Shown here: positions 9,428 to 58,602 of the stretch, piece after piece | Numbering within the stretch: position 1 is the first letter of the stretch | How the letters are laid out: each line of letters begins with the position of its first letter | Assembly: GCA_035288865.1 (NCBI GenBank) | Contig: DATDZA010000017.1 | Coordinates: 12,672-76,671, forward strand | Direction of reading: 5' to 3' | Origin: Candidatus Nanoarchaeia archaeon | GTDB lineage: Archaea; Nanobdellota; Nanobdellia; Woesearchaeales; GW2011-AR4 | DNA length: 64,000 nt | Position numbers and translations under genes: made by a program | The notes under the pieces: model-generated | Seen by the model: the letters and a program-made list of their open reading frames with translations, nothing else | Database searches by the model: none | What the model was told of the DNA's origin: nothing

Positions 9428-10390
9428 TTATTTATTTCCAACCAGCGCAAACTGGCTCAATAAAGCTTCTAACTGTATAAATTCATCGGAGCCTTCCGTC
9501 ATCCGAAATTCTATTTCGCCGCATTTCTCAATAAGAATCATCTTAGATTTATTATCTGTATCCAGATCAATAATCTCTTTCTGTATCTGTTTTATTACAT
9601 CAGAGCCTGCCAATCCATAAGTAAGCATCAAATCCAGTAATTTGTTTCTTGCATCAATAAATTTGTTCTTTAATGCCAATTCCAAAACTTCTTTTATCTC
9701 TTTCGGCTTTGCTATCGAAGCCATTGAATGCACCAAATCTTCTGTGATATGATTTTCAATTGCTCCCGCGCTTTGCAGAATATTTTCCAGCTTCCTGCAG
9801 TCGCCTTCTGAAACCTCATAAAGCGCCTCTTTAGCCTTATCGTCAATCTTCAGTTTTTCTTCCTTGGCAATGTTGTCTATAATTTCAAAAATTTCTTTTT
9901 TATCAAGCCTCTTGAACCTGAAAACAACACATCTGCTCTGGATTGGGTCAATTATTTTTGAAGAATAATTCGCAGACAGTACAAACCTGCACGTCTGAGT
10001 GTAATTCTCCATAGTTCTCCTCAAAGCCTGCTGTGCTTCTCTTGTTAAGGCGTCACATTCGTCTAGATAAATTATTTTGAAGGGAACATCCCCTATAGCC
10101 CTTGTTCTTGCAAAATCTTTTACTTTGTTTCTTATAATATCAATTCCTCTTTCATCTGAAGCATTCAGCTCAAGAAAATTCTGATGCCACAGGTCTTTGA
10201 AAAGTTTTTTTGCTATCACTAAAGCCAAGCTCGTTTTTCCTACACCGGCAGGCCCCGCAAACATCAAATGAGGCAGGTTCTTTTGCTCAACAAACGCCTT
10301 CACTCTTTTTACTATATCTTTCTGGCCCTTAATGTCAGAGAAATCACTAGGCCTGTACTTCTCGGTCCACAGAGATTTTTCTACATTCAT
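9428..10390 (-). CDS. rfcS: Replication factor C small subunit
   Basis: WTEKYRP, GPAGVGKT, ELNASDERG, DECD, SRC motifs. Confidence 0.97.
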   Translation of the reverse strand: MNVEKSLWTEKYRPSDFSDIKGQKDIVKRVKAFVEQKNLPHLMFAGPAGVGKTSLALVIAKKLFKDLWHQNFLELNASDERGIDIIRNKVKDFARTRAIGDVPFKIIYLDECDALTREAQQALRRTMENYTQTCRFVLSANYSSKIIDPIQSRCVVFRFKRLDKKEIFEIIDNIAKEEKLKIDDKAKEALYEVSEGDCRKLENILQSAGAIENHITEDLVHSMASIAKPKEIKEVLELALKNKFIDARNKLLDLMLTYGLAGSDVIKQIQKEIIDLDTDNKSKMILIEKCGEIEFRMTEGSDEFIQLEALLSQFALVGNK

Positions 10391-10437
10391 TTTTGATATC
10401 TGAGAAACACTATATTGTTTAAAAAGGTATTTATACC

Positions 10438-10833
10438 CTACTTTAGATTTTTGACATCTTTAATTATTTTCAAGTTTCTTATGGGAAGATAGAAAGTTAA
10501 TCCCAAAACTATGATCAGGAAAATTGAAAACAAATATCCCATTATTCCAATATTTAAGAAAGAATTCCAATTTTTGATGCCCTTCAAAGTATAAATAGAA
10601 TATATAACCATAATTAAAAATATAAATAATACAATATAATTTATTGCTAGTATACTTTTCAATTTATTAGCATCAATAATAGATGGAGTAATAAATCCAG
10701 GAACTTTAGAATTTACTTCTCGAAAACATTTTTTATGATACAGGGCAAGTATTGGAATGTTTATATGGCGCCAATAGCTTATAATTAAATCATTTCTAGA
10801 ATTTATAGGTTGTTTGCAGTTTTCGCATTTCAT
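10438..10833 (-). CDS. Small membrane protein with an N-terminal Zn-finger-like CxxC..HxxC
   Basis: MKCENCKQ...YHKKC, then two TM helices; start moved to MKCENC. Confidence 0.6.
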   Translation of the reverse strand: MKCENCKQPINSRNDLIISYWRHINIPILALYHKKCFREVNSKVPGFITPSIIDANKLKSILAINYIVLFIFLIMVIYSIYTLKGIKNWNSFLNIGIMGYLFSIFLIIVLGLTFYLPIRNLKIIKDVKNLK

Positions 10834-10850
10834 ATTGATTACTTTGTTAG

Positions 10851-11207
10851 TTACTGCTCGTTTACTTGCTTTTGGCACAAATCTTTTAGTAAATTAAGTT
10901 CGGCATCAGATACACCAAAACTTGGATCTGCAAGATTATTGCATATTTCAGGATCATTTTTATCCAAAGCAACTCCGATTATGCAGCCACCAACTGCAGC
11001 GGACCTTGCACCCGGCACAGCACCAACAATTCTACTGCAAAAAGAAACATCATTACTCTTTAATGCCATAGTCGTGAAACATAAGTCTTTCCTCATATTA
11101 CTCTTAAAATTTTCACATTTCGATGCCTCTGTATTATAAGATTTGGCGCACCCAGAAATAATAAAAATTCCTAAAACTAAGATTGAGAATAATAAAATTT
11201 TATTCAT
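10851..11207 (-). CDS. Cys-rich lipoprotein (hypothetical)
   Basis: MNKILLF...ISGC lipobox; repeated C...C motifs. Confidence 0.6.
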   Translation of the reverse strand: MNKILLFSILVLGIFIISGCAKSYNTEASKCENFKSNMRKDLCFTTMALKSNDVSFCSRIVGAVPGARSAAVGGCIIGVALDKNDPEICNNLADPSFGVSDAELNLLKDLCQKQVNEQ

Positions 11208-11330
11208 GTTTAATGTTAAAATGGATTTACATACATATAAATATATCGTTTGCAATTAAAAGTTATTCGAACTTAAAATCAAAAACTAAGAATGTTATTA
11301 TTTTTTAATCATTAACATAAAAATAAAATC

Positions 11331-11594
11331 TTAAATTATATCCTCTTCAGCAACAACCATGAAATCGCCGATTGCGATAACTGCGCTGAAAGGTATCAGA
11401 ATATGCCCTTCCTTGTCTTTTTCTAGCTCTAATTTCTCTGTGTAAGAAGTCGGATTATGAAGAACCATATGTATCAATTCGCCTGAGCGTGTCTCAAATA
11501 TAATATCGCCTACTTCGCCAAACCTCTTTCCTGTCTTTGAAACAACAGTCTTTCCAATCAGCTGCTTTGAGAATTTCTTATCGTCTTCCGGCAT
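11331..11594 (-). CDS. PRC-barrel protein
   Basis: LIGKTVVSKTGKRFGEVGDIIFETRSGEL...IPFSAVIAIGDFMVV. Confidence 0.9.
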   Translation of the reverse strand: MPEDDKKFSKQLIGKTVVSKTGKRFGEVGDIIFETRSGELIHMVLHNPTSYTEKLELEKDKEGHILIPFSAVIAIGDFMVVAEEDII

Positions 11595-11718
11595 TTTCTT
11601 CCCTCTTAAGTTAATACGAAATATTGTTGGGCAGGTTGTATTTAAATTTATCGAAAATGCCCCGCAATATGGTCTAATTTTCTATATAATTATTGTCAAA
11701 TTACCTTATAATCGCCAC

Positions 11719-12573
11719 TTAGGCTAACATGTTGTTTATCTTCAATAATTTGTTCATTTCTTCTTCATTGTAGCAAGTTTCCCTTAATCCGCATTTAACA
11801 CATTTATTCTCATTATTGCAGAAATCCGGCAAATTCTTGTTTTCCAATAGACCAATTACTTCATTTACTATTTGCCTTACCTCATCCTTCATGAAAGGAT
11901 TTATTGCAATGTGCCTTTTTTCTTTTGTGTCAAGGTAAAAAACAAACCCCTCCTTTATCGGCTTCCTGAATTTTTCCTGCAAAAGCATGGAGTAAGCTGC
12001 TATCTGTATGCGGTGCGAAGGCCATACGCCTGAATATGGGGCCCTTCCTGTTTTCAGTTCAAACGGCACATAATCTTGCTCATAAACATGAACTTGGTCA
12101 ATTATTCCTTTTAATTTCAATTCCTCTGACTCAACTCTCAGCTCTGACAAAATTTTCGGCGTCAGTCTCTGCCACAATTCATCTCCAAAAACATTATTTT
12201 TTAGTATGAAATCAAAAACATTTTTTGACCTTGTAACCGATTCTTCCATTATGAACGGGAATGATTTTCTATAAGCGTCAAGCATGTTTAAATTTATTTT
12301 CTTTAACCTGTCTTTGTTGTCCGCAATGCTCTTCCTTAGAAATTTCAGGTGATTTTGCTCGTATAATTGTTGCATTTCCGCAAATTCCATTTTTTTTGTT
12401 ATGGAAGTGACAATAAACTCTTCATTCTTGTTTATCTTGTCATAAGTCTCGTGCCTTATGCTTCCCATAACCAAAGACTCCTTGGGCGGCTCTGCCTGCA
12501 TCAAAACTTTTTCAAGAAACAGCTTTCTGGAGCAGTACAGGTAGCTGGACAACAAAGTAACAGAGATTTTCAT
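11719..12573 (-). CDS. cas4: Solo Cas4-like Fe-S RecB-family exonuclease
   Basis: YLYCSRK, G.IRH, KGIIDQV, PFELKTG, QIAAY and C-terminal C..KC.KC...C (four-Cys cluster). Confidence 0.85.
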   Translation of the reverse strand: MKISVTLLSSYLYCSRKLFLEKVLMQAEPPKESLVMGSIRHETYDKINKNEEFIVTSITKKMEFAEMQQLYEQNHLKFLRKSIADNKDRLKKINLNMLDAYRKSFPFIMEESVTRSKNVFDFILKNNVFGDELWQRLTPKILSELRVESEELKLKGIIDQVHVYEQDYVPFELKTGRAPYSGVWPSHRIQIAAYSMLLQEKFRKPIKEGFVFYLDTKEKRHIAINPFMKDEVRQIVNEVIGLLENKNLPDFCNNENKCVKCGLRETCYNEEEMNKLLKINNMLA

Positions 12574-12595
12574 TAGACTTATACTTCAGAATTGG

Positions 12596-12627
12596 TTTAT
12601 AAAGTTTACGTGAAGATGTCCAGTGGT
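12596..12627 (-). promoter_or_regulatory. Conserved 19-bp upstream motif + BRE/TATA of cas4 (copy 1)
   Basis: Minus strand ACCACTGGACATCTTCACG-TAAAC-TTTATAAA, 22 nt before the cas4 ATG. Confidence 0.7.
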
Positions 12628-12651
12628 TTATTAGACATGTAAAATATGCTG

Positions 12652-12852
12652 CCAACAACAAGAATGGCAGGCAAACACGGATTTTCTCGGTGAAAATCCT
12701 ACTCACAAAGGATTTTTCCCAACTTCGTAAGGAAAAATCCTCTGCATTCGATTTGCCGCCATTGTTGTTGGACGAAAACTGAGTGGAGAACAAAAATCAG
12801 TTACGAAGTTCTGATTTTTGTTTTCCGAATAGGGTTTTCTTCAAGAAAACCC
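12652..12852 (+). ncRNA. Candidate structured RNA (multi-stem, kissing loops)
   Basis: Long closing stem 12652-12675/12752-12771; hairpins 12679-12699, 12709-12741, 12785-12826 and 12832-12852. Loops 12721-12730 and 12801-12810 are perfect reverse complements. A G-U pair favours the + strand. Confidence 0.5.
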
Positions 12853-12958
12853 GTGTTTGAGTCCATTGTTATTTTTGATGACAATTAAATTCTGCACTTT
12901 TACTTTTTAATTATACAAACCACAACCTTTATATTCTACTTATTCCAAGAATTAATCT

Positions 12959-13216
12959 ATGAAAGAAGGAGCTTTTATAGGGGCCGTTATAGCCTTGTTG
13001 ATTTATATAATGCTGCCAATCTATGGCGATAATGGAACGCCGGCAAGCGTTTTTCCGACAGCTCAGGTAGTTTCTGACACGAATTCTTTTGACGGCTATG
13101 TCTCAAATCTGCCGTTCAGCACAATGATATTCTTTGCTTTGGAAATAATGGGAGTTTCTCTTGGCATAGGAGCCCAGATGATATTCAGGAAAGTATATGA
13201 GCCAAAGCAGCAATAA
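12959..13216 (+). CDS. Small two-TM membrane protein (hypothetical)
   Basis: ORF with TATA (CTTTATAT) about 25 nt upstream; hydrophobic ends. Confidence 0.6.
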   Translation: MKEGAFIGAVIALLIYIMLPIYGDNGTPASVFPTAQVVSDTNSFDGYVSNLPFSTMIFFALEIMGVSLGIGAQMIFRKVYEPKQQ

Positions 13217-13337
13217 AGATTTTTTTCTAAAATTATTTTATTTTTGATTTATCATAATACATCTTATTTATGAATTTTAATTTTTATTGTAATTTTGTTT
13301 GTAATGCGCAGATTTTATAGAATATAAAATTCTTATT

Positions 13338-13376
13338 GAGAATTTTGAAATATATCCATTTTGTCAAAGTTCTCTA
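13338..13376. repeat. REP-like hairpin element (short unit)
   Basis: GAGAATTTTGA..TTGTCAAAGTTCTCT, homologous to 2750-2790 and to the reverse complement of 27935-27972. Confidence 0.7.
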
Positions 13377-13471
13377 TTCTAAAATTTAAATAAAGAAAAT
13401 CAAGATTTTCTAATTTAAAGGTCCACAAATAAAGATTTGCGACACCTTTAAATATTCATAATTAAAATTAC

Positions 13472-14551
13472 TTGCTTATGGACACTGAAAATAAAATAAG
13501 CCTAATTAAGCAAGTTGGCGAGGAAATAATCACAGAAGAAGAATTAAGAAATCTTTTGCAGACAAAAGAGCATCCAATCGCTTATGACGGCTTCGAGCCA
13601 AGTGGCCAAGATGTTCACATTGCACAAGGAATTCTGAGGTCCATTAACATTAACAAGATGACCAAAGCCGGCGTCAAGTTCAAGATGCTTGTCGCTGACT
13701 GGCATGCGTGGGCAAATAACAAAATGTCCGGCGATTTAGGAAGAATACAGACTGTAGGGAATTATTTGATTGAAGTATGGAAGCATTGCGGAATGGATTT
13801 AAAGAATGTTGAATTTATTTGGGCAAATGATTTTGTTAAAGACACAGATTACTGGAAAAAAGTAATGCAGGTTTCAAGGAATTCAACCGTCAACAGAATA
13901 ATAAGGACTGGCCAGATAATGGGCAGAAAGGAAGCAGATGTGCAGCAGGCTTCTCAAATTTTGTATCCCTGCATGCAGTGCGCTGATATTTTCCAGCTAA
14001 AAGCAGATATTACTCAGCTTGGGATGGATCAAAGGAAAGTTAATGTTTTGGCAAGGGAGCTTGGCCCTTCTTTGGGATTCTGGAAGCCGGTTGTTGTTTC
14101 ACATCATATGCTGATGGGGTTAGGGGAGCCGCCGAAATCAAAAGACATTGACAGAGTAATTGATTTGAAAATGTCTAAGTCGAAGCCGGACACTGCAATT
14201 TTTATGAATGATTCCGAAGAAGATATCAAGAGAAAAATTGGAAAAGCATATTGCCCTGCAAAAGTCACTGAAGAAAATCCGATGCTTGAATATTCAAAAT
14301 ATTTAATTTTTGAAAAATTCAATGTGATGGAATTCAAAAGGCCGGAAAAATTCGGCGGAGATTTAATCGTTGAAAATTATAAAGAATTAGAAAGATTATA
14401 CGCTGAAGGAAAACTTCATCCAATGGATTTAAAGAATGCAGTTTCTCATTATATCAATGAAATGGTAACTCCCGTCAGGGAAGCTTTCCATAAAGATGCT
14501 AAATTAAAGCATCTTCTTGAGACGATTAGGAAGTTTGAAGTGACGAGATAA
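13472..14551 (+). CDS. tyrS: Tyrosyl-tRNA synthetase (archaeal type)
   Basis: YDGFEPSG, HIAQG (HIGH-like), YPCMQCAD, GMDQRK, KMSKS, LHPMDLK. Confidence 0.95.
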   Translation: MLMDTENKISLIKQVGEEIITEEELRNLLQTKEHPIAYDGFEPSGQDVHIAQGILRSININKMTKAGVKFKMLVADWHAWANNKMSGDLGRIQTVGNYLIEVWKHCGMDLKNVEFIWANDFVKDTDYWKKVMQVSRNSTVNRIIRTGQIMGRKEADVQQASQILYPCMQCADIFQLKADITQLGMDQRKVNVLARELGPSLGFWKPVVVSHHMLMGLGEPPKSKDIDRVIDLKMSKSKPDTAIFMNDSEEDIKRKIGKAYCPAKVTEENPMLEYSKYLIFEKFNVMEFKRPEKFGGDLIVENYKELERLYAEGKLHPMDLKNAVSHYINEMVTPVREAFHKDAKLKHLLETIRKFEVTR

Positions 14552-26406: not shown

Positions 26407-27297
26407 ATGCAACTTACATTTTTGGGAACATCTTCAATGGTTCCGACAAAAGAAAGAAACCAGATAGCAGTTTTCCTTAGTTATGGCACTGAAGGAATTT
26501 TATTTGACTGCGGTGAAGGAACTCAGCGACAATTCAAGATTGCAGGAATACCGCTAAGCAAAGTAACAAAAATTTTGCTGAGCCACTGGCATGGCGACCA
26601 TGTTCTGGGACTGCCCGGATTGATGCAGACTTTAAGTTCTACTGATTATACCGGAACTCTTGAAATTTATGGGCCGGCAGGAACAAAAAAAAGAATGGAA
26701 AAAATGTTCGAGGCATTTGTGTTTGATAAAAAACTTAATTTCAAGGTTGAAGAGGTCAAATCAGGAAAATTTTTTGAAAATGGCGATTTCGATCTGGAAT
26801 CATATCCGCTCGAGCACGGAATTGAAACTTTGGGATTTAAATTCACAGAAAAAGACAAGAGAAAAGTTGACATGAAGAAAGTAAAGAAATTTGGAATTCC
26901 GGAAGGCCCTTTGATTGGAAAATTGCAGCAAGGCCATTCGATTGAGCATAACGGCAAAAAAATAAACCCTGATGATGTGACTGATATTGAAAAGGGAAAG
27001 AAAGTTGCGTATGTAACTGACACAGTTTTATGCAGCGGCTGTTACAAAACTGCAGAAGGCGCTGATTTATTGATTTGCGAAGCAACATACTCCTCAAAAT
27101 TAGCTGATAAAGGCGAAGAATATGGCCATATGACGGCAAAACAAGCGGGACAACTAGCTAACAAATCCAATGCTAAACAATTGGTTTTAATTCATTTCAG
27201 CGCAAGATACAAAAATACGCAAGAGTTGGAAGAGGACGCAAGAGATGTTTTTGATAATGTAATCTGCGCAAAAGATTTCATGAAGATTGATTTATAA
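26407..27297 (+). CDS. rnz: Ribonuclease Z
   Basis: FLGTSSMVPTKERN, DCGEGTQRQ, SHWHGDHVLG, YVTDT, GHMT, HFSARY. Start moved to MQLTFLG. Confidence 0.95.
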   Translation: MQLTFLGTSSMVPTKERNQIAVFLSYGTEGILFDCGEGTQRQFKIAGIPLSKVTKILLSHWHGDHVLGLPGLMQTLSSTDYTGTLEIYGPAGTKKRMEKMFEAFVFDKKLNFKVEEVKSGKFFENGDFDLESYPLEHGIETLGFKFTEKDKRKVDMKKVKKFGIPEGPLIGKLQQGHSIEHNGKKINPDDVTDIEKGKKVAYVTDTVLCSGCYKTAEGADLLICEATYSSKLADKGEEYGHMTAKQAGQLANKSNAKQLVLIHFSARYKNTQELEEDARDVFDNVICAKDFMKIDL

Positions 27298-27423
27298 CAA
27301 GGGTTTCGCCCCTTGAGGACGAAAAACTTTTTGCGAAAAAGTTTTATCAAAAATTGTACTTTCTTCGATGGCACTCGCTAAAATAAACTTATGGGCTGGT
27401 CAGACTTATAGAACAAACCGTGC

Positions 27424-27455
27424 ACCATTGGACATCTTCACCCAAACTATTTAAA
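27424..27455 (+). promoter_or_regulatory. Conserved 19-bp upstream motif + BRE/TATA of hjc (copy 2)
   Basis: ACCATTGGACATCTTCACC-CAAAC-TATTTAAA, 29 nt before the hjc ATG. Confidence 0.7.
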
Positions 27456-58321: not shown

Positions 58322-58353
58322 TTTATATATTATGCGTGAAGATGTCCAGTGGT
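58322..58353 (-). promoter_or_regulatory. Conserved 19-bp upstream motif + TATA (copy 3)
   Basis: Minus strand ACCACTGGACATCTTCACG-CATAA-TATATAAA, identical 19-mer to 12609-12627. Confidence 0.7.
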
Positions 58354-58367
58354 ACAGAATAAAAGAG

Positions 58368-58544
58368 TGCGGGGAAGAGGATTCGAACCCCTGAAGGCAC
58401 TAAGCCAGTAGATATCTCTCCTGCCATGTTTTTTGTCTAGCAGGTAGATAGGCCTAAGCTATCCGAAACGCCTTGAGTTTGGGTGAGTAAATCTCTACCC
58501 CGTAAAGCCCCATTTTAATGGTTTGGCCGCTCCGGCATCCCCGC
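58368..58544 (-). tRNA. tRNA-Leu(CAA) with three introns (58504-58522, 58479-58494, 58414-58471)
   Basis: Spliced product GCGGGGATGCCGGAGCGGCCAAACGGGGTAGACTCAAGATCTACTGGCTTAGTGCCTTCAGGGGTTCGAATCCTCTTCCCCGCA folds as a long-variable-arm tRNA-Leu. The D-arm and 30/31 introns have 4-bp BHB cores. Confidence 0.88.
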
Positions 58545-58602
58545 ATAGCTTTTAGAATAAGAATTTCATTTAAAAAGATTTGCACTTGAATGTCAAAGAA
58601 TC

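What the first reader, a model, noticed from the sequence alone, without database searches (positions are those of the whole stretch)
12652..12852. 200-nt structured element with a perfect 10-bp loop-loop (kissing) complementarity
Seen: a closing stem (12652-12675/12752-12771) enclosing two hairpins, then a 16-bp hairpin and a 9-bp hairpin. Loop AACTTCGTAA (12721-12730) is the exact reverse complement of loop TTACGAAGTT (12801-12810). One G-U pair favours the + strand, which the palindromic TTTATAAA at 12596 could drive. I see no SRP (helix 8) or RNase P (GAGGAAAGUCC) signature. Several stems reuse GATTTT/AAAATC, so a DNA-level palindrome array is an alternative. Inference: an unannotated ncRNA or a riboregulator of the downstream 85-aa membrane protein.
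Basis: partly seen in the sequence, partly recalled or inferred. Interest (0 to 1): 0.7.

Follow-up and report, generated by a model that had tools for sequence, protein, structure and literature searches.

The report
Inverted-duplicate structured RNA-like gene cassette
The 200-nt hairpin cluster is real and its structure is conserved, but it consists of two inverted copies of one ~115-nt three-way-junction module, which explains the "kissing" loops; it is most likely an undescribed accessory non-coding RNA gene inserted between two promoters of a DPANN archaeon, not a regulator of the next gene.

Summary
The loop complementarity is not an isolated feature. It is the inner end of a 78-nt inverted repeat (0/2000 shuffles). 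Domain 2, read on the minus strand, is a copy of domain 1: closing stem, hairpin, TAYTC, then a hairpin with loop AACTTCGTAA (covariance model E=1e-10).

Close relatives carry the same element at 84% identity, with compensatory changes. One relative carries a GC-rich version with the same architecture but almost every stem pair replaced on both sides. Structure is therefore under selection.

The element lies in a 290-nt slot between the core promoters of a Cas4-family gene and the 85-aa gene. The slot is empty in distant relatives and holds unrelated small genes in other close ones, so this is an insertable cassette, not a 5' UTR. Metagenome contigs show the module at 20-100 times the depth of its flanks and in other contexts.

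Rfam, ARAGORN, phage, plasmid and viral searches find nothing, and no RNA data exist. Best reading: a new accessory ncRNA of about 220 nt on the + strand (confidence 0.42). Function is unknown.

The parts
12627..12916 (.). Variable slot (the inserted cassette) between the conserved 17-mer GTGAAGATGTCCAGTGG (12610-12626) and AAACCACAACC-TTTATATT (12917-12935, promoter of the 85-aa gene)
   Evidence: The flanks are conserved in all relatives while the content differs. It is the same element in L003/L061/L063/L069 and others, a GC-rich version in L002/L089/L090, and unrelated small ORFs in L001/L058/L059, L060, L065, L078 and L093. The slot is empty in L223 and nearly empty in L220.
12627..12634 (+). 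TATA-like octamer TTTATTAG, candidate promoter for a + strand transcript starting near 12657
   Evidence: An A/T-rich octamer lies directly after the 17-mer and 19-23 nt before the start of the conserved closing stem in all three variants: TTTATTAG, TTAATTAG and GAAAATAA. The mRNA promoters here use a 20-23 nt spacing. This is an inference and has not been shown.
12652..12675 (+). P1 5' strand of domain 1 (conserved from about 12657: AACAAGAAUGGC-A-GGCAAA)
   Evidence: Pairs with 12752-12771. The inner 6 bp, the bulged A and the next 4-5 bp are kept in L002, with 5 pairs changed on both sides.
12679..12699 (+). H1 hairpin (8 bp, loop UCGGU)
   Evidence: There is one A-U to C-G double change in L003 (12681 and 12697) and four double changes in L002. 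A paired deletion of 12685 and 12693 occurs in an abundant metagenome variant.
12700..12709 (+). J2 junction UACUCACAAA (family motif CCUAYUC)
   Evidence: Identical in L003. CCUACUCA is kept in the otherwise unalignable L002, and CCUAUUC appears in the inverted copy.
12710..12740 (+). H2 hairpin (10 bp) with 11-nt loop C-AACUUCGUAA (family motif ACYYCGYA)
   Evidence: The stem is invariant in L003 and 4 loop positions changed there. The motif is present in all six module copies from the three genomes.
12741..12771 (+). J3 (UCUGCAUUCGA) plus the P1 3' strand (UUUGCC-GCCA-UUGUUGUUGG); the most conserved segment of the family
   Evidence: This segment is 100% identical in L003 apart from one base at 12766. 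Exact-match contig depth is 220-289 against about 10 for the flanks, with different sequences following 12764 and 12770.
12770..12864 (+). Domain 2: closing stem GGAC-GA-AAAC / GUUU-GA-GUCC, H3 (12785-12826, loop UUACGAAGUU 12801-12810), GAAUA, H4 (12832-12852)
   Evidence: Supported by the MFE. On the minus strand it matches the domain-1 covariance model over its full length (49.1 bits, E=1e-10). H4 has a C-G to G-C double change in L003, and H3 has a C-G to U-G change in L003. The closing stem and H4 are compensated in L002.
12865..12878 (+). 3' tail AUUGUUAUUUUUG with a T5 run (12872-12876), candidate archaeal terminator for the + strand
   Evidence: T5 is kept in L003. T5-T6 runs follow the module in other metagenome contexts (loose ends). 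The run is absent in L002. Its role as a terminator is inferred.

Best explanation
The element is an accessory gene cassette for a previously undescribed structured non-coding RNA of about 220 nt. I read it as transcribed on the + strand, from a weak TATA-like box at 12627-12634 (start near 12657) to the T5 run at 12872-12876.

The RNA consists of a ~115-nt three-way-junction module (P1-H1-J2-H2-J3) followed by an inverted, antisense copy of the same module, which itself folds as a second three-way junction. Because the second half is an antisense copy, the exposed single-stranded parts of module 1 each have a complementary partner exposed in module 2. These parts are the H2 loop, J2 (ACUCA) and J3 (AUUCG). 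The two halves can therefore dock on each other. Alternatively, the second half could pair in trans with free copies of the module, starting at a 5-7-bp loop-loop contact.

What is shown: the structure, its conservation with compensatory changes, the inverted-duplicate origin, cassette behaviour, and the abundance of the module in other contexts.

What is inferred: transcription, the strand, the transcript ends, and any loop-loop docking.
For: Structure:
- Folding z = -8.65.
- Between the window and L003 (84% identical), every stem change is either double-sided (12681/12697 and 12839/12845) or gives G-U. The unpaired junctions J2 and J3, the linker and GAAUA are 100% conserved.
- The element's core (12701-12800) is 94% identical, against 82-88% for the neighbouring coding DNA.
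- L002/L089 carry, in the same slot, a 61% GC version with the same architecture. 14 stem pairs are changed on both sides and none on one side. It matches the domain-1 model with no non-canonical pair in P1 or H1.
- On the model alignment, 96.4% of cells are paired and 19 of 29 pairs have double changes. 0 of 500 shuffles reach this, and slid controls give 40-62% paired and 1-4 double-change pairs.
- Each half keeps its own closing stem, which a simple terminal-inverted-repeat DNA element does not need.

Strand:
- All three wobble pairs in the three variants are G-U on the + strand and would be A-C on the minus strand.
- A T5 run follows on the + strand in two variants, and T5-T6 runs follow in other contexts.
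- A TATA-like octamer lies 19-23 nt before P1 in all three variants.

Cassette behaviour: the slot is empty in L223 and L220 and holds other genes elsewhere.

Family: module depth is 400-1800 against 6-100 for the flanks at >=80-85% identity. Exact-match depth is 220-289 against about 10. Copies containing only D1 or only D2 occur in other contexts.

Docking energies: loop-loop duplex -11.6 (window), -7.1 (L003) and -32.3 kcal/mol for the extended L002 pairing; J2 with the linker -9.5.
Against: - There is no transcript evidence. No RNA run holds the sequence.
- The minus strand folds equally well.
- All hairpin covariation would equally be preserved for ssDNA or cruciform DNA.
- Only three distinct full-length sequence types were recovered, and the L002 alignment is partly hand-made.
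- The candidate promoter is weak, and L002 lacks a T run.
- One abundant metagenome variant (12697 T>C with no listed partner change) would be G-U on the minus strand.
- Loop complementarity decays in L003 without compensation.
- No function can be tied to the neighbouring genes.
Confidence: 0.42

Rival explanations
1. A DNA-level foldback or MITE-like mobile element. The two 78-nt arms would be terminal inverted repeats recognised by a transposase or recombinase, and the hairpins would matter only as DNA.
For: - Long inverted repeat reaching both ends of the conserved region.
- Presence/absence polymorphism at one site among strains whose Cas4-family proteins are >=90% identical.
- Module depth 20-100 times that of the flanks, and other flanking contexts in the same metagenomes.
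- The minus strand folds as well as the plus strand.
Against: - No target-site duplication is visible.
- Compared with the empty site (L223), the inserted DNA is 290 nt. It carries 25-33 nt and 21-41 nt of variant-specific DNA outside the repeats, so the insertion borders are not the repeat ends.
- There is only one locus in 64 kb, and none in about 50 kb of related loci.
- No transposase or integrase is adjacent.
- Each arm keeps an internal closing stem with compensatory changes, for which a TIR model has no use.
- Two very divergent versions occupy exactly the same site. That fits allelic replacement by homologous recombination better than two independent transpositions.
- Nothing was found in viral, phage or plasmid collections.
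Confidence: 0.2
2. Two convergent genes for the same ~115-nt small RNA, D1 on the + strand and D2 on the minus strand. Each would display the same loop motif ACYYCGYA for a common partner such as a protein or a target RNA. The loop complementarity would then be meaningless.
For: - D2 on the minus strand matches the D1 model end to end (E=1e-10).
- The loop motif and CCUAYUC are conserved in all six copies.
- Single modules occur alone elsewhere, some followed by T6 on the module-sense strand.
- A/T-rich boxes also exist on the minus strand near 12903-12912.
Against: - In module-sense orientation, H3 has one A-C mismatch in the window and two in L003, where the + strand has G-U.
- No T run follows either module on its own strand inside the element.
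- Convergent overlapping transcription would give dsRNA.
- The tail-to-tail arrangement is kept across very divergent variants, which independent genes would not require.
Confidence: 0.15
3. A recombination or replication site, such as an integron attC-like site, an origin, or a rolling-circle nick hairpin.
For: - Structure is conserved rather than sequence.
- It lies in a slot that exchanges cassettes.
- GTTGGAC at 12766-12772 fits the attC R' consensus GTTRRRY (my own knowledge of the consensus).
- The 10-16-bp stems with 10-11-nt conserved loops resemble nick-site hairpins.
Against: - L002 has no GTTRRRY at the homologous place.
- The ORF-bearing cassettes in the same slot carry no such structure.
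- No integrase, Rep or Orc1 gene is adjacent.
- The element is dispensable in sister strains, so it is not the chromosomal origin.
Confidence: 0.05
4. A cis-acting riboregulator in the 5' UTR of the 85-aa membrane protein gene.
For: It lies upstream of that gene on the same strand.
Against: - The gene's TATA box (12928-12935, 23 nt before the ATG) lies downstream of the element and of a T5 run.
- The gene and its promoter are unchanged where the slot is empty or holds other genes.
Confidence: 0.03

Closest known systems
Antisense-RNA pairs that start pairing at kissing loops (CopA/CopT of plasmid R1, RNA I/RNA II of ColE1, Sok/hok); named from my own knowledge
   Same: A sense hairpin and its antisense copy expose exactly complementary loops. 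Contact through a few loop bases can then spread. Here the sense and antisense copies lie on one strand, 80 nt apart.
   Different: - The known pairs are transcribed from opposite strands of one locus and control replication or a toxin. Here the antisense copy is a separate, diverged inverted duplicate (68% over 78 nt).
- No target gene is evident.
- Transcription is not shown.
phi29-family packaging RNA (pRNA, Rfam RF00044)
   Different: - No sequence or model match.
- pRNA loop pairing is 4 bp, between two loops of the same module.
- pRNA is a phage RNA beside packaging genes, whereas this is a chromosomal archaeal cassette.
MITEs and foldback elements
   Same: Short, non-coding, with long inverted arms. 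Present or absent among strains and over-represented in the community.
   Different: - No target-site duplication.
- The insertion borders lie outside the repeats.
- Each arm has its own compensated closing stem.
- A single locus in 64 kb.
Integron attC sites
   Same: Structure is conserved, not sequence. Imperfect palindromes with bulged bases, located in a cassette-exchanging locus.
   Different: - Two inverted three-way junctions rather than one bulged hairpin.
- R'/R'' boxes are not conserved.
- Other cassettes in the slot lack such a site.
- No integrase.

Membership tests
Any Rfam 15 family (including archaeal SRP RNA, RNase P RNA, 5S rRNA, tRNA, pRNA, known ribozymes and riboswitches) | Covariance-model match at or near the family's gathering score | tested here: not met
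   There were 0 hits at gathering score in the whole window. In the 700-nt region the best hits are 10-22 bits against thresholds of 34-144, all in unrelated families. There were 0 hits at E<=1 in six related loci.
tRNA / tRNA-like | Cloverleaf with a T-arm and an anticodon loop | tested here: not met
   ARAGORN finds nothing, with or without intron search.
Cis-regulatory 5' UTR element (riboswitch, leader) | Lies between the regulated gene's promoter and its start codon, and co-occurs with that gene | tested here: not met
   The 85-aa gene's TATA box at 12928-12935 is downstream of the element. The gene is present without the element in L001, L060, L065, L078, L093, L220 and L223.
MITE / foldback transposon | Terminal inverted repeats | tested here: met
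   A 78-nt inverted repeat reaches both ends of the conserved region.
MITE / foldback transposon | Target-site duplication, and insertion borders at the repeat ends | tested here: not met
   No direct repeat flanks 12652 and 12878. Compared with the empty site in L223, the insertion spans 12627-12916.
MITE / foldback transposon | Several near-identical copies per genome | tested here: inconclusive
   There is one locus in 64 kb. However, the metagenomes hold the module at 20-100 times the flank depth and in other contexts. The whole genome is not available.
Integron attC | R''/R' boxes (RYYYAAC ... GTTRRRY), a single bulged hairpin, one per cassette, and an integrase nearby | tested here: not met
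   GTTGGAC is present in the window and L003 but not in L002. The ORF cassettes have no such site, and no integrase is among the neighbouring ORFs.
Structured ncRNA gene (generic) | Base pairs maintained by compensatory change across homologues | tested here: met
   Caveat: there are only three sequence types, and the same pattern is expected for DNA hairpins.
Structured ncRNA gene (generic) | A transcript with defined ends | not testable with these tools
   No RNA run holds the sequence.

The most novel reading that the evidence does not exclude
The module is a new family of small structured RNAs spread through groundwater DPANN archaea as promoter-to-terminator cassettes. The sense-plus-antisense dimer found here would be either a self-docking or multimerising RNA, or a built-in anti-RNA that neutralises free copies of the module. 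Pairing would use three exposed contacts: the H2/H3 loops, J2 with UGAGU, and J3 with CGAAU. That would make it an RNA-only regulator/antagonist pair carried in a recombination hot spot.
Probability: 0.15. Interest if true: 0.75.

Novelty: new variant of a known kind. Interest (0 to 1): 0.5.

Why it matters
DPANN archaea have tiny genomes, and almost nothing is known about their non-coding RNAs. This element stands out for four reasons:
- Both A/T-rich and G/C-rich versions keep the same structure.
- Its core is more conserved than the neighbouring protein genes.
- It is abundant in groundwater communities.
- It moves in and out of a defined promoter-flanked slot.

It is therefore a concrete candidate for a new RNA family and for studying how accessory RNA genes are exchanged in these organisms.

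The result also carries a caution. Perfect loop-loop complementarity can be a by-product of an inverted duplication and is not by itself evidence of a tertiary contact.

Tried and rejected
- **Rfam.** Searched at gathering score and at permissive thresholds on the window and on related loci. Nothing found.
- **Spurious-ORF search.** I used a six-frame peptide concatenate of the element and of the L002 version as a protein query, hoping to find spurious ORFs called over other copies. No hit.
- **Viral contig scans.** Exact and degenerate DNA patterns gave only chance matches: a 16-mer (51 hits), an 18-mer (3 hits, all in coding regions) and a gapped motif (120+ hits). None had flanking similarity.
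- **BLAST.** Nothing against GenBank phages or PLSDB plasmids.
- **RNA-seq runs.** None available.
- **Literature.** No description found.
- I spent the single genome-collection and metagenome-collection scans on the Cas4-family neighbour. That defined the slot but returned only three element variants, and a DNA-pattern scan for the module itself was then no longer possible.
- **Origin of replication.** TCCAGTGG in the flank resembles the ORB core as I remember it. I rejected this because the 17-mer copies are dispersed and each sits beside a promoter, and because the slot content is dispensable.
- **SRP Alu-like, 5S-like and T-loop or anticodon-like readings.** Considered from sequence resemblance and dropped for lack of any model support.
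- **L070.** It first looked like transfer of an identical element between diverged genomes. It turned out to be the same genome with a swapped Cas4 allele, or a chimeric assembly.

Full report
**Context.** The window is A+T-rich (33-40% GC). Around the finding it encodes housekeeping archaeal genes:
- RFC small subunit (9428-10390, minus strand)
- a PRC-barrel protein (11331-11594, minus strand)
- a Cas4/PD-(D/E)XK-family nuclease (11719-12573, minus strand)
- an 85-aa membrane protein (12959-13216, plus strand)
- a class Ib aminoacyl-tRNA synthetase (13472-14551, plus strand)

Public sources label the closest Cas4-family proteins Nanoarchaeota or Woesearchaeota. The sequence is held by groundwater and soil metagenome runs. 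The finding lies in the 385-nt space between the divergent Cas4-family and 85-aa genes.

- It adds a closing stem around H3+H4, so the element is two three-way junctions, D1 (12652-12771) and D2 (12770-12864).
- The minus strand folds at least as well (z = -10.2).
- AACTTCGTAA and its complement occur exactly once each in 64 kb.

**What the loop complementarity really is.**
- The repeat finder shows the two loops are the inner ends of a 59-nt, 73% inverted repeat.
- A local alignment of D1 with the reverse complement of D2 runs for 78 nt, from the 5' strand of the closing stem to the end of the H2 loop. It scores 44 against 14.6 +/- 2.2 for shuffles, and 0 of 2000 shuffles reach it.
- Read on the minus strand, D2 has the same order of parts as D1: AAYAAUGG..CAAAC, AC, an 8-10-bp GGRUUUUC hairpin, UAYUC, then a hairpin whose loop is AACUUCGUAA.
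- A covariance model built only from D1 (window plus L003) finds D2 on the minus strand end to end at 49.1 bits, E = 1e-10. It finds nothing else in the window.

So the element is a tail-to-tail inverted pair of one ~115-nt module. Two inverted copies of one loop motif are necessarily complementary.

**Relatives.** Using the Cas4-family neighbour as a handle, I recovered three versions of the element, all in the same place.

*1. The window version.* It is also found in L070. L070 is the same genome with a swapped Cas4 allele, or a chimeric assembly.

*2. The L003 type.* It occurs in L061, L063, L069, L071-74, L086-88 and L092 and is 84% identical over the slot. Within the element the differences are as follows:
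- two double-sided stem changes: 12681 A>C with 12697 U>G in H1, and 12839 C>G with 12845 G>C in H4
- one C>U change (12798) that turns a C-G pair into U-G
- changes in the H1 and H4 loops
- four changes in the H2 loop and none in the H3 loop

The junctions J2 and J3, the inter-domain linker, GAAUA and the 3' GUGUUUGAGUCCAUUGU are invariant. The 12701-12800 bin is 94% identical, against 82-88% in the flanking coding DNA.

*3. The L002/L089/L090 type.* It is 61% GC in a roughly 35% GC genome and cannot be aligned by MAFFT, yet it has the same architecture:
- an inner closing stem of 6 bp, a bulged A, then 5 bp
- an 8-bp H1 followed by CCUACUCA
- an 8-bp H4
- a second closing stem
- a 3' UGAGUC

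In my helix-by-helix comparison, 14 pairs differ from the window on both sides and none on one side. The D1 model aligns L002 with no non-canonical pair in P1 or H1 (23.1 bits, E = 1e-3).

On the model-made alignment, 96.4% of cells are paired and 19 of 29 pairs carry double changes. 0 of 500 shuffles reach this, and sliding the partners drops pairing to 40-62% with 1-4 double-change pairs.

Caveats: there are few independent sequences, the alignment is fitted to the model, and the same signal is expected for hairpins that matter as DNA.

**It is a cassette, not a leader.** The flanks of a 290-nt slot (12627-12916) are conserved in all relatives.
- On the left is the 17-mer GTGAAGATGTCCAGTGG, 6 nt from the Cas4 gene's TATA box. 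That TATA box (TTTATAAA, 12596-12603) lies 22 nt before the ATG.
- On the right is AAACCRCAACC, abutting the 85-aa gene's TATA box (TTTATATT, 12928-12935), which lies 23 nt before its ATG.

In genomes whose Cas4-family protein is 72-74% identical, the slot is empty (L223) or about 30 nt long (L220). In close relatives (>=90%) it holds one of the following:
- the element
- a ~110-aa membrane ORF (L001, L058, L059)
- other small ORFs (L060, L065, L078, L093)
- other hairpin-rich DNA (L062, L075)

This rules out a 5' UTR riboregulator of the 85-aa gene and assigns TTTATAAA to the Cas4-family gene.

The inserted DNA includes variant-specific sequence outside the inverted repeats. In all three variants it includes an A/T-rich octamer 19-23 nt before the closing stem. 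In two variants a T5 run follows D2.

**Abundance.** Logan contigs from four groundwater and soil runs were laid on the region.
- At >=85% identity they give summed depths of 400-1300 over 12679-12864, against 6-100 on the flanking genes. One search shows the same pattern at >=80%.
- At >=99% identity, the segment 12742-12775 (J3 plus the P1 3' strand) still has depth 220-289, against about 10 for this genome.
- Contigs run on into unrelated sequence after 12764 and 12770.
- Other contigs carry D1-like units followed by T6, or a D2-like piece inside a 1.4-kb contig.
- One abundant variant lacks 12685 and 12693 together, which is exactly one H1 base pair.

The module is therefore a family found in several contexts or in many related genomes. 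I could not retrieve those sequences with the tools available.

**Which strand, and RNA or DNA?**

For an RNA on the + strand:
- All three wobble pairs seen in the three variants are G-U on the + strand and would be A-C on the minus strand.
- T5-T6 runs follow on that strand.
- There is a candidate TATA box at a consistent distance.
- Each half keeps its own compensated closing stem, which a TIR-only DNA element would not need.

Against:
- There are no RNA data.
- The candidate promoter is weak.
- L002 has no T run.
- One metagenome variant (12697 T>C) may favour the minus strand.

I put an expressed + strand ncRNA at 0.42, a DNA-level foldback or mobile element at 0.20, two convergent copies of one small RNA at 0.15, a recombination or replication site at 0.05 and the riboregulator at 0.03.

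**Do the loops kiss?** If one + strand RNA is made, D2 is an antisense copy of D1. Three exposed segments of D1 then face complementary exposed segments of D2:
- the H2 loop with the H3 loop: -11.6 kcal/mol in the window, -7.1 in L003
- J2 (CUACUCA) with UGAGUGG: -9.5 kcal/mol
- J3 (AUUCG) with CGAAU

In L002 the local H2 and H3 hairpins are weak, and the homologous regions can form a roughly 20-bp imperfect duplex (-32.3 kcal/mol).

Two positions of the loop pairing differ on both sides between the window and L002 (A-U to C-G, twice). L002 also has two mismatches, and L003 lost three pairs without compensation.

From general knowledge of kissing complexes (6-7 bp in HIV DIS and ColE1 RNA I/II), a 10-11-nt loop cannot pair all ten bases anyway. 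The conserved core ACUUCG/CGAAGU is the plausible contact.

None of this separates selection for pairing from conservation of one motif in two copies. That needs the family-wide test described under next steps.

**Comparison with known systems.** The element works most like sense/antisense hairpin pairs that meet through kissing loops. In architecture it resembles three-way-junction RNAs with interlocking loops, such as phi29 pRNA. It is a member of neither. No Rfam model matches, the genomic setting differs, and its function is unknown. It shares inverted arms and patchy distribution with MITEs but fails on target-site duplication and on insertion borders. It shares structure-not-sequence conservation with attC sites but fails on their boxes, shape and integrase linkage.

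**Verdict.** This is a real, structurally conserved and apparently undescribed element, most likely an accessory ncRNA gene cassette. The headline "perfect 10-bp kissing complementarity" is explained by an inverted duplication and is not independent evidence of a tertiary contact. Interest is moderate, at 0.5.

Noticed in passing
window 12610-12626 (+), 58336-58352 (+), 27425-27441 (-): The 17-mer GTGAAGATGTCCAGTGG occurs three times in 64 kb (0.11 expected, 0 of 100 shuffles). Each copy lies exactly 6 nt from a TATA-like octamer. Its core ATGTCCAGTGG is kept beside the Cas4-family gene in relatives down to 62-74% protein identity. It may be an upstream promoter element or a regulator binding site. 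It also marks the left border of the variable slot.
   Followed up: partly
window 12627-12916 and the homologous place in L001, L002, L060, L062, L065, L075, L078, L093, L220, L223: The space between two divergent core promoters is a cassette hot spot. It is empty in distant relatives. In strains whose flanking genes are >=90% identical it holds unrelated small membrane or secreted ORFs, or hairpin-rich DNA.
   Followed up: partly
window 58368-58555, minus strand: tRNA-like ends (GCGGGGA ... GGGGTTCGAATCCTCTTCCCCGCA) lie about 185 nt apart, beside the second copy of the 17-mer. ARAGORN (with intron search) and Rfam do not call it. It may be a multi-intron tRNA. ARAGORN finds no tRNA anywhere in the 64 kb.
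   Followed up: partly
L070 versus window 10200-14100: L070 is 100% identical to the window except for 11600-12450 (the body of the Cas4-family gene), which carries the L069-type allele (about 86% identity). This is either homologous recombination between strains or a chimeric assembly.
   Followed up: yes
L062 (rev. comp.) about 50-150 nt after the 17-mer; L075 (rev. comp.) directly after the 17-mer: Other slot contents also fold. L062 has a closing stem around two hairpins: GTCGCC-TTTG-GGCGAC, and GGCGAAATTT-(10-nt loop)-AAATTTCGCC. L075 has three copies of ACTGGTGG/CCACCAGT, which allow alternative pairings. Neither matches model R1.
   Followed up: no
window 27285-27424, minus strand: The region following the third 17-mer copy contains small hairpins and the string GTTTTTCGTCC, similar to GTTTTCGTCC in the element. 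However, its folding is not better than shuffles (z = -1.06).
   Followed up: yes
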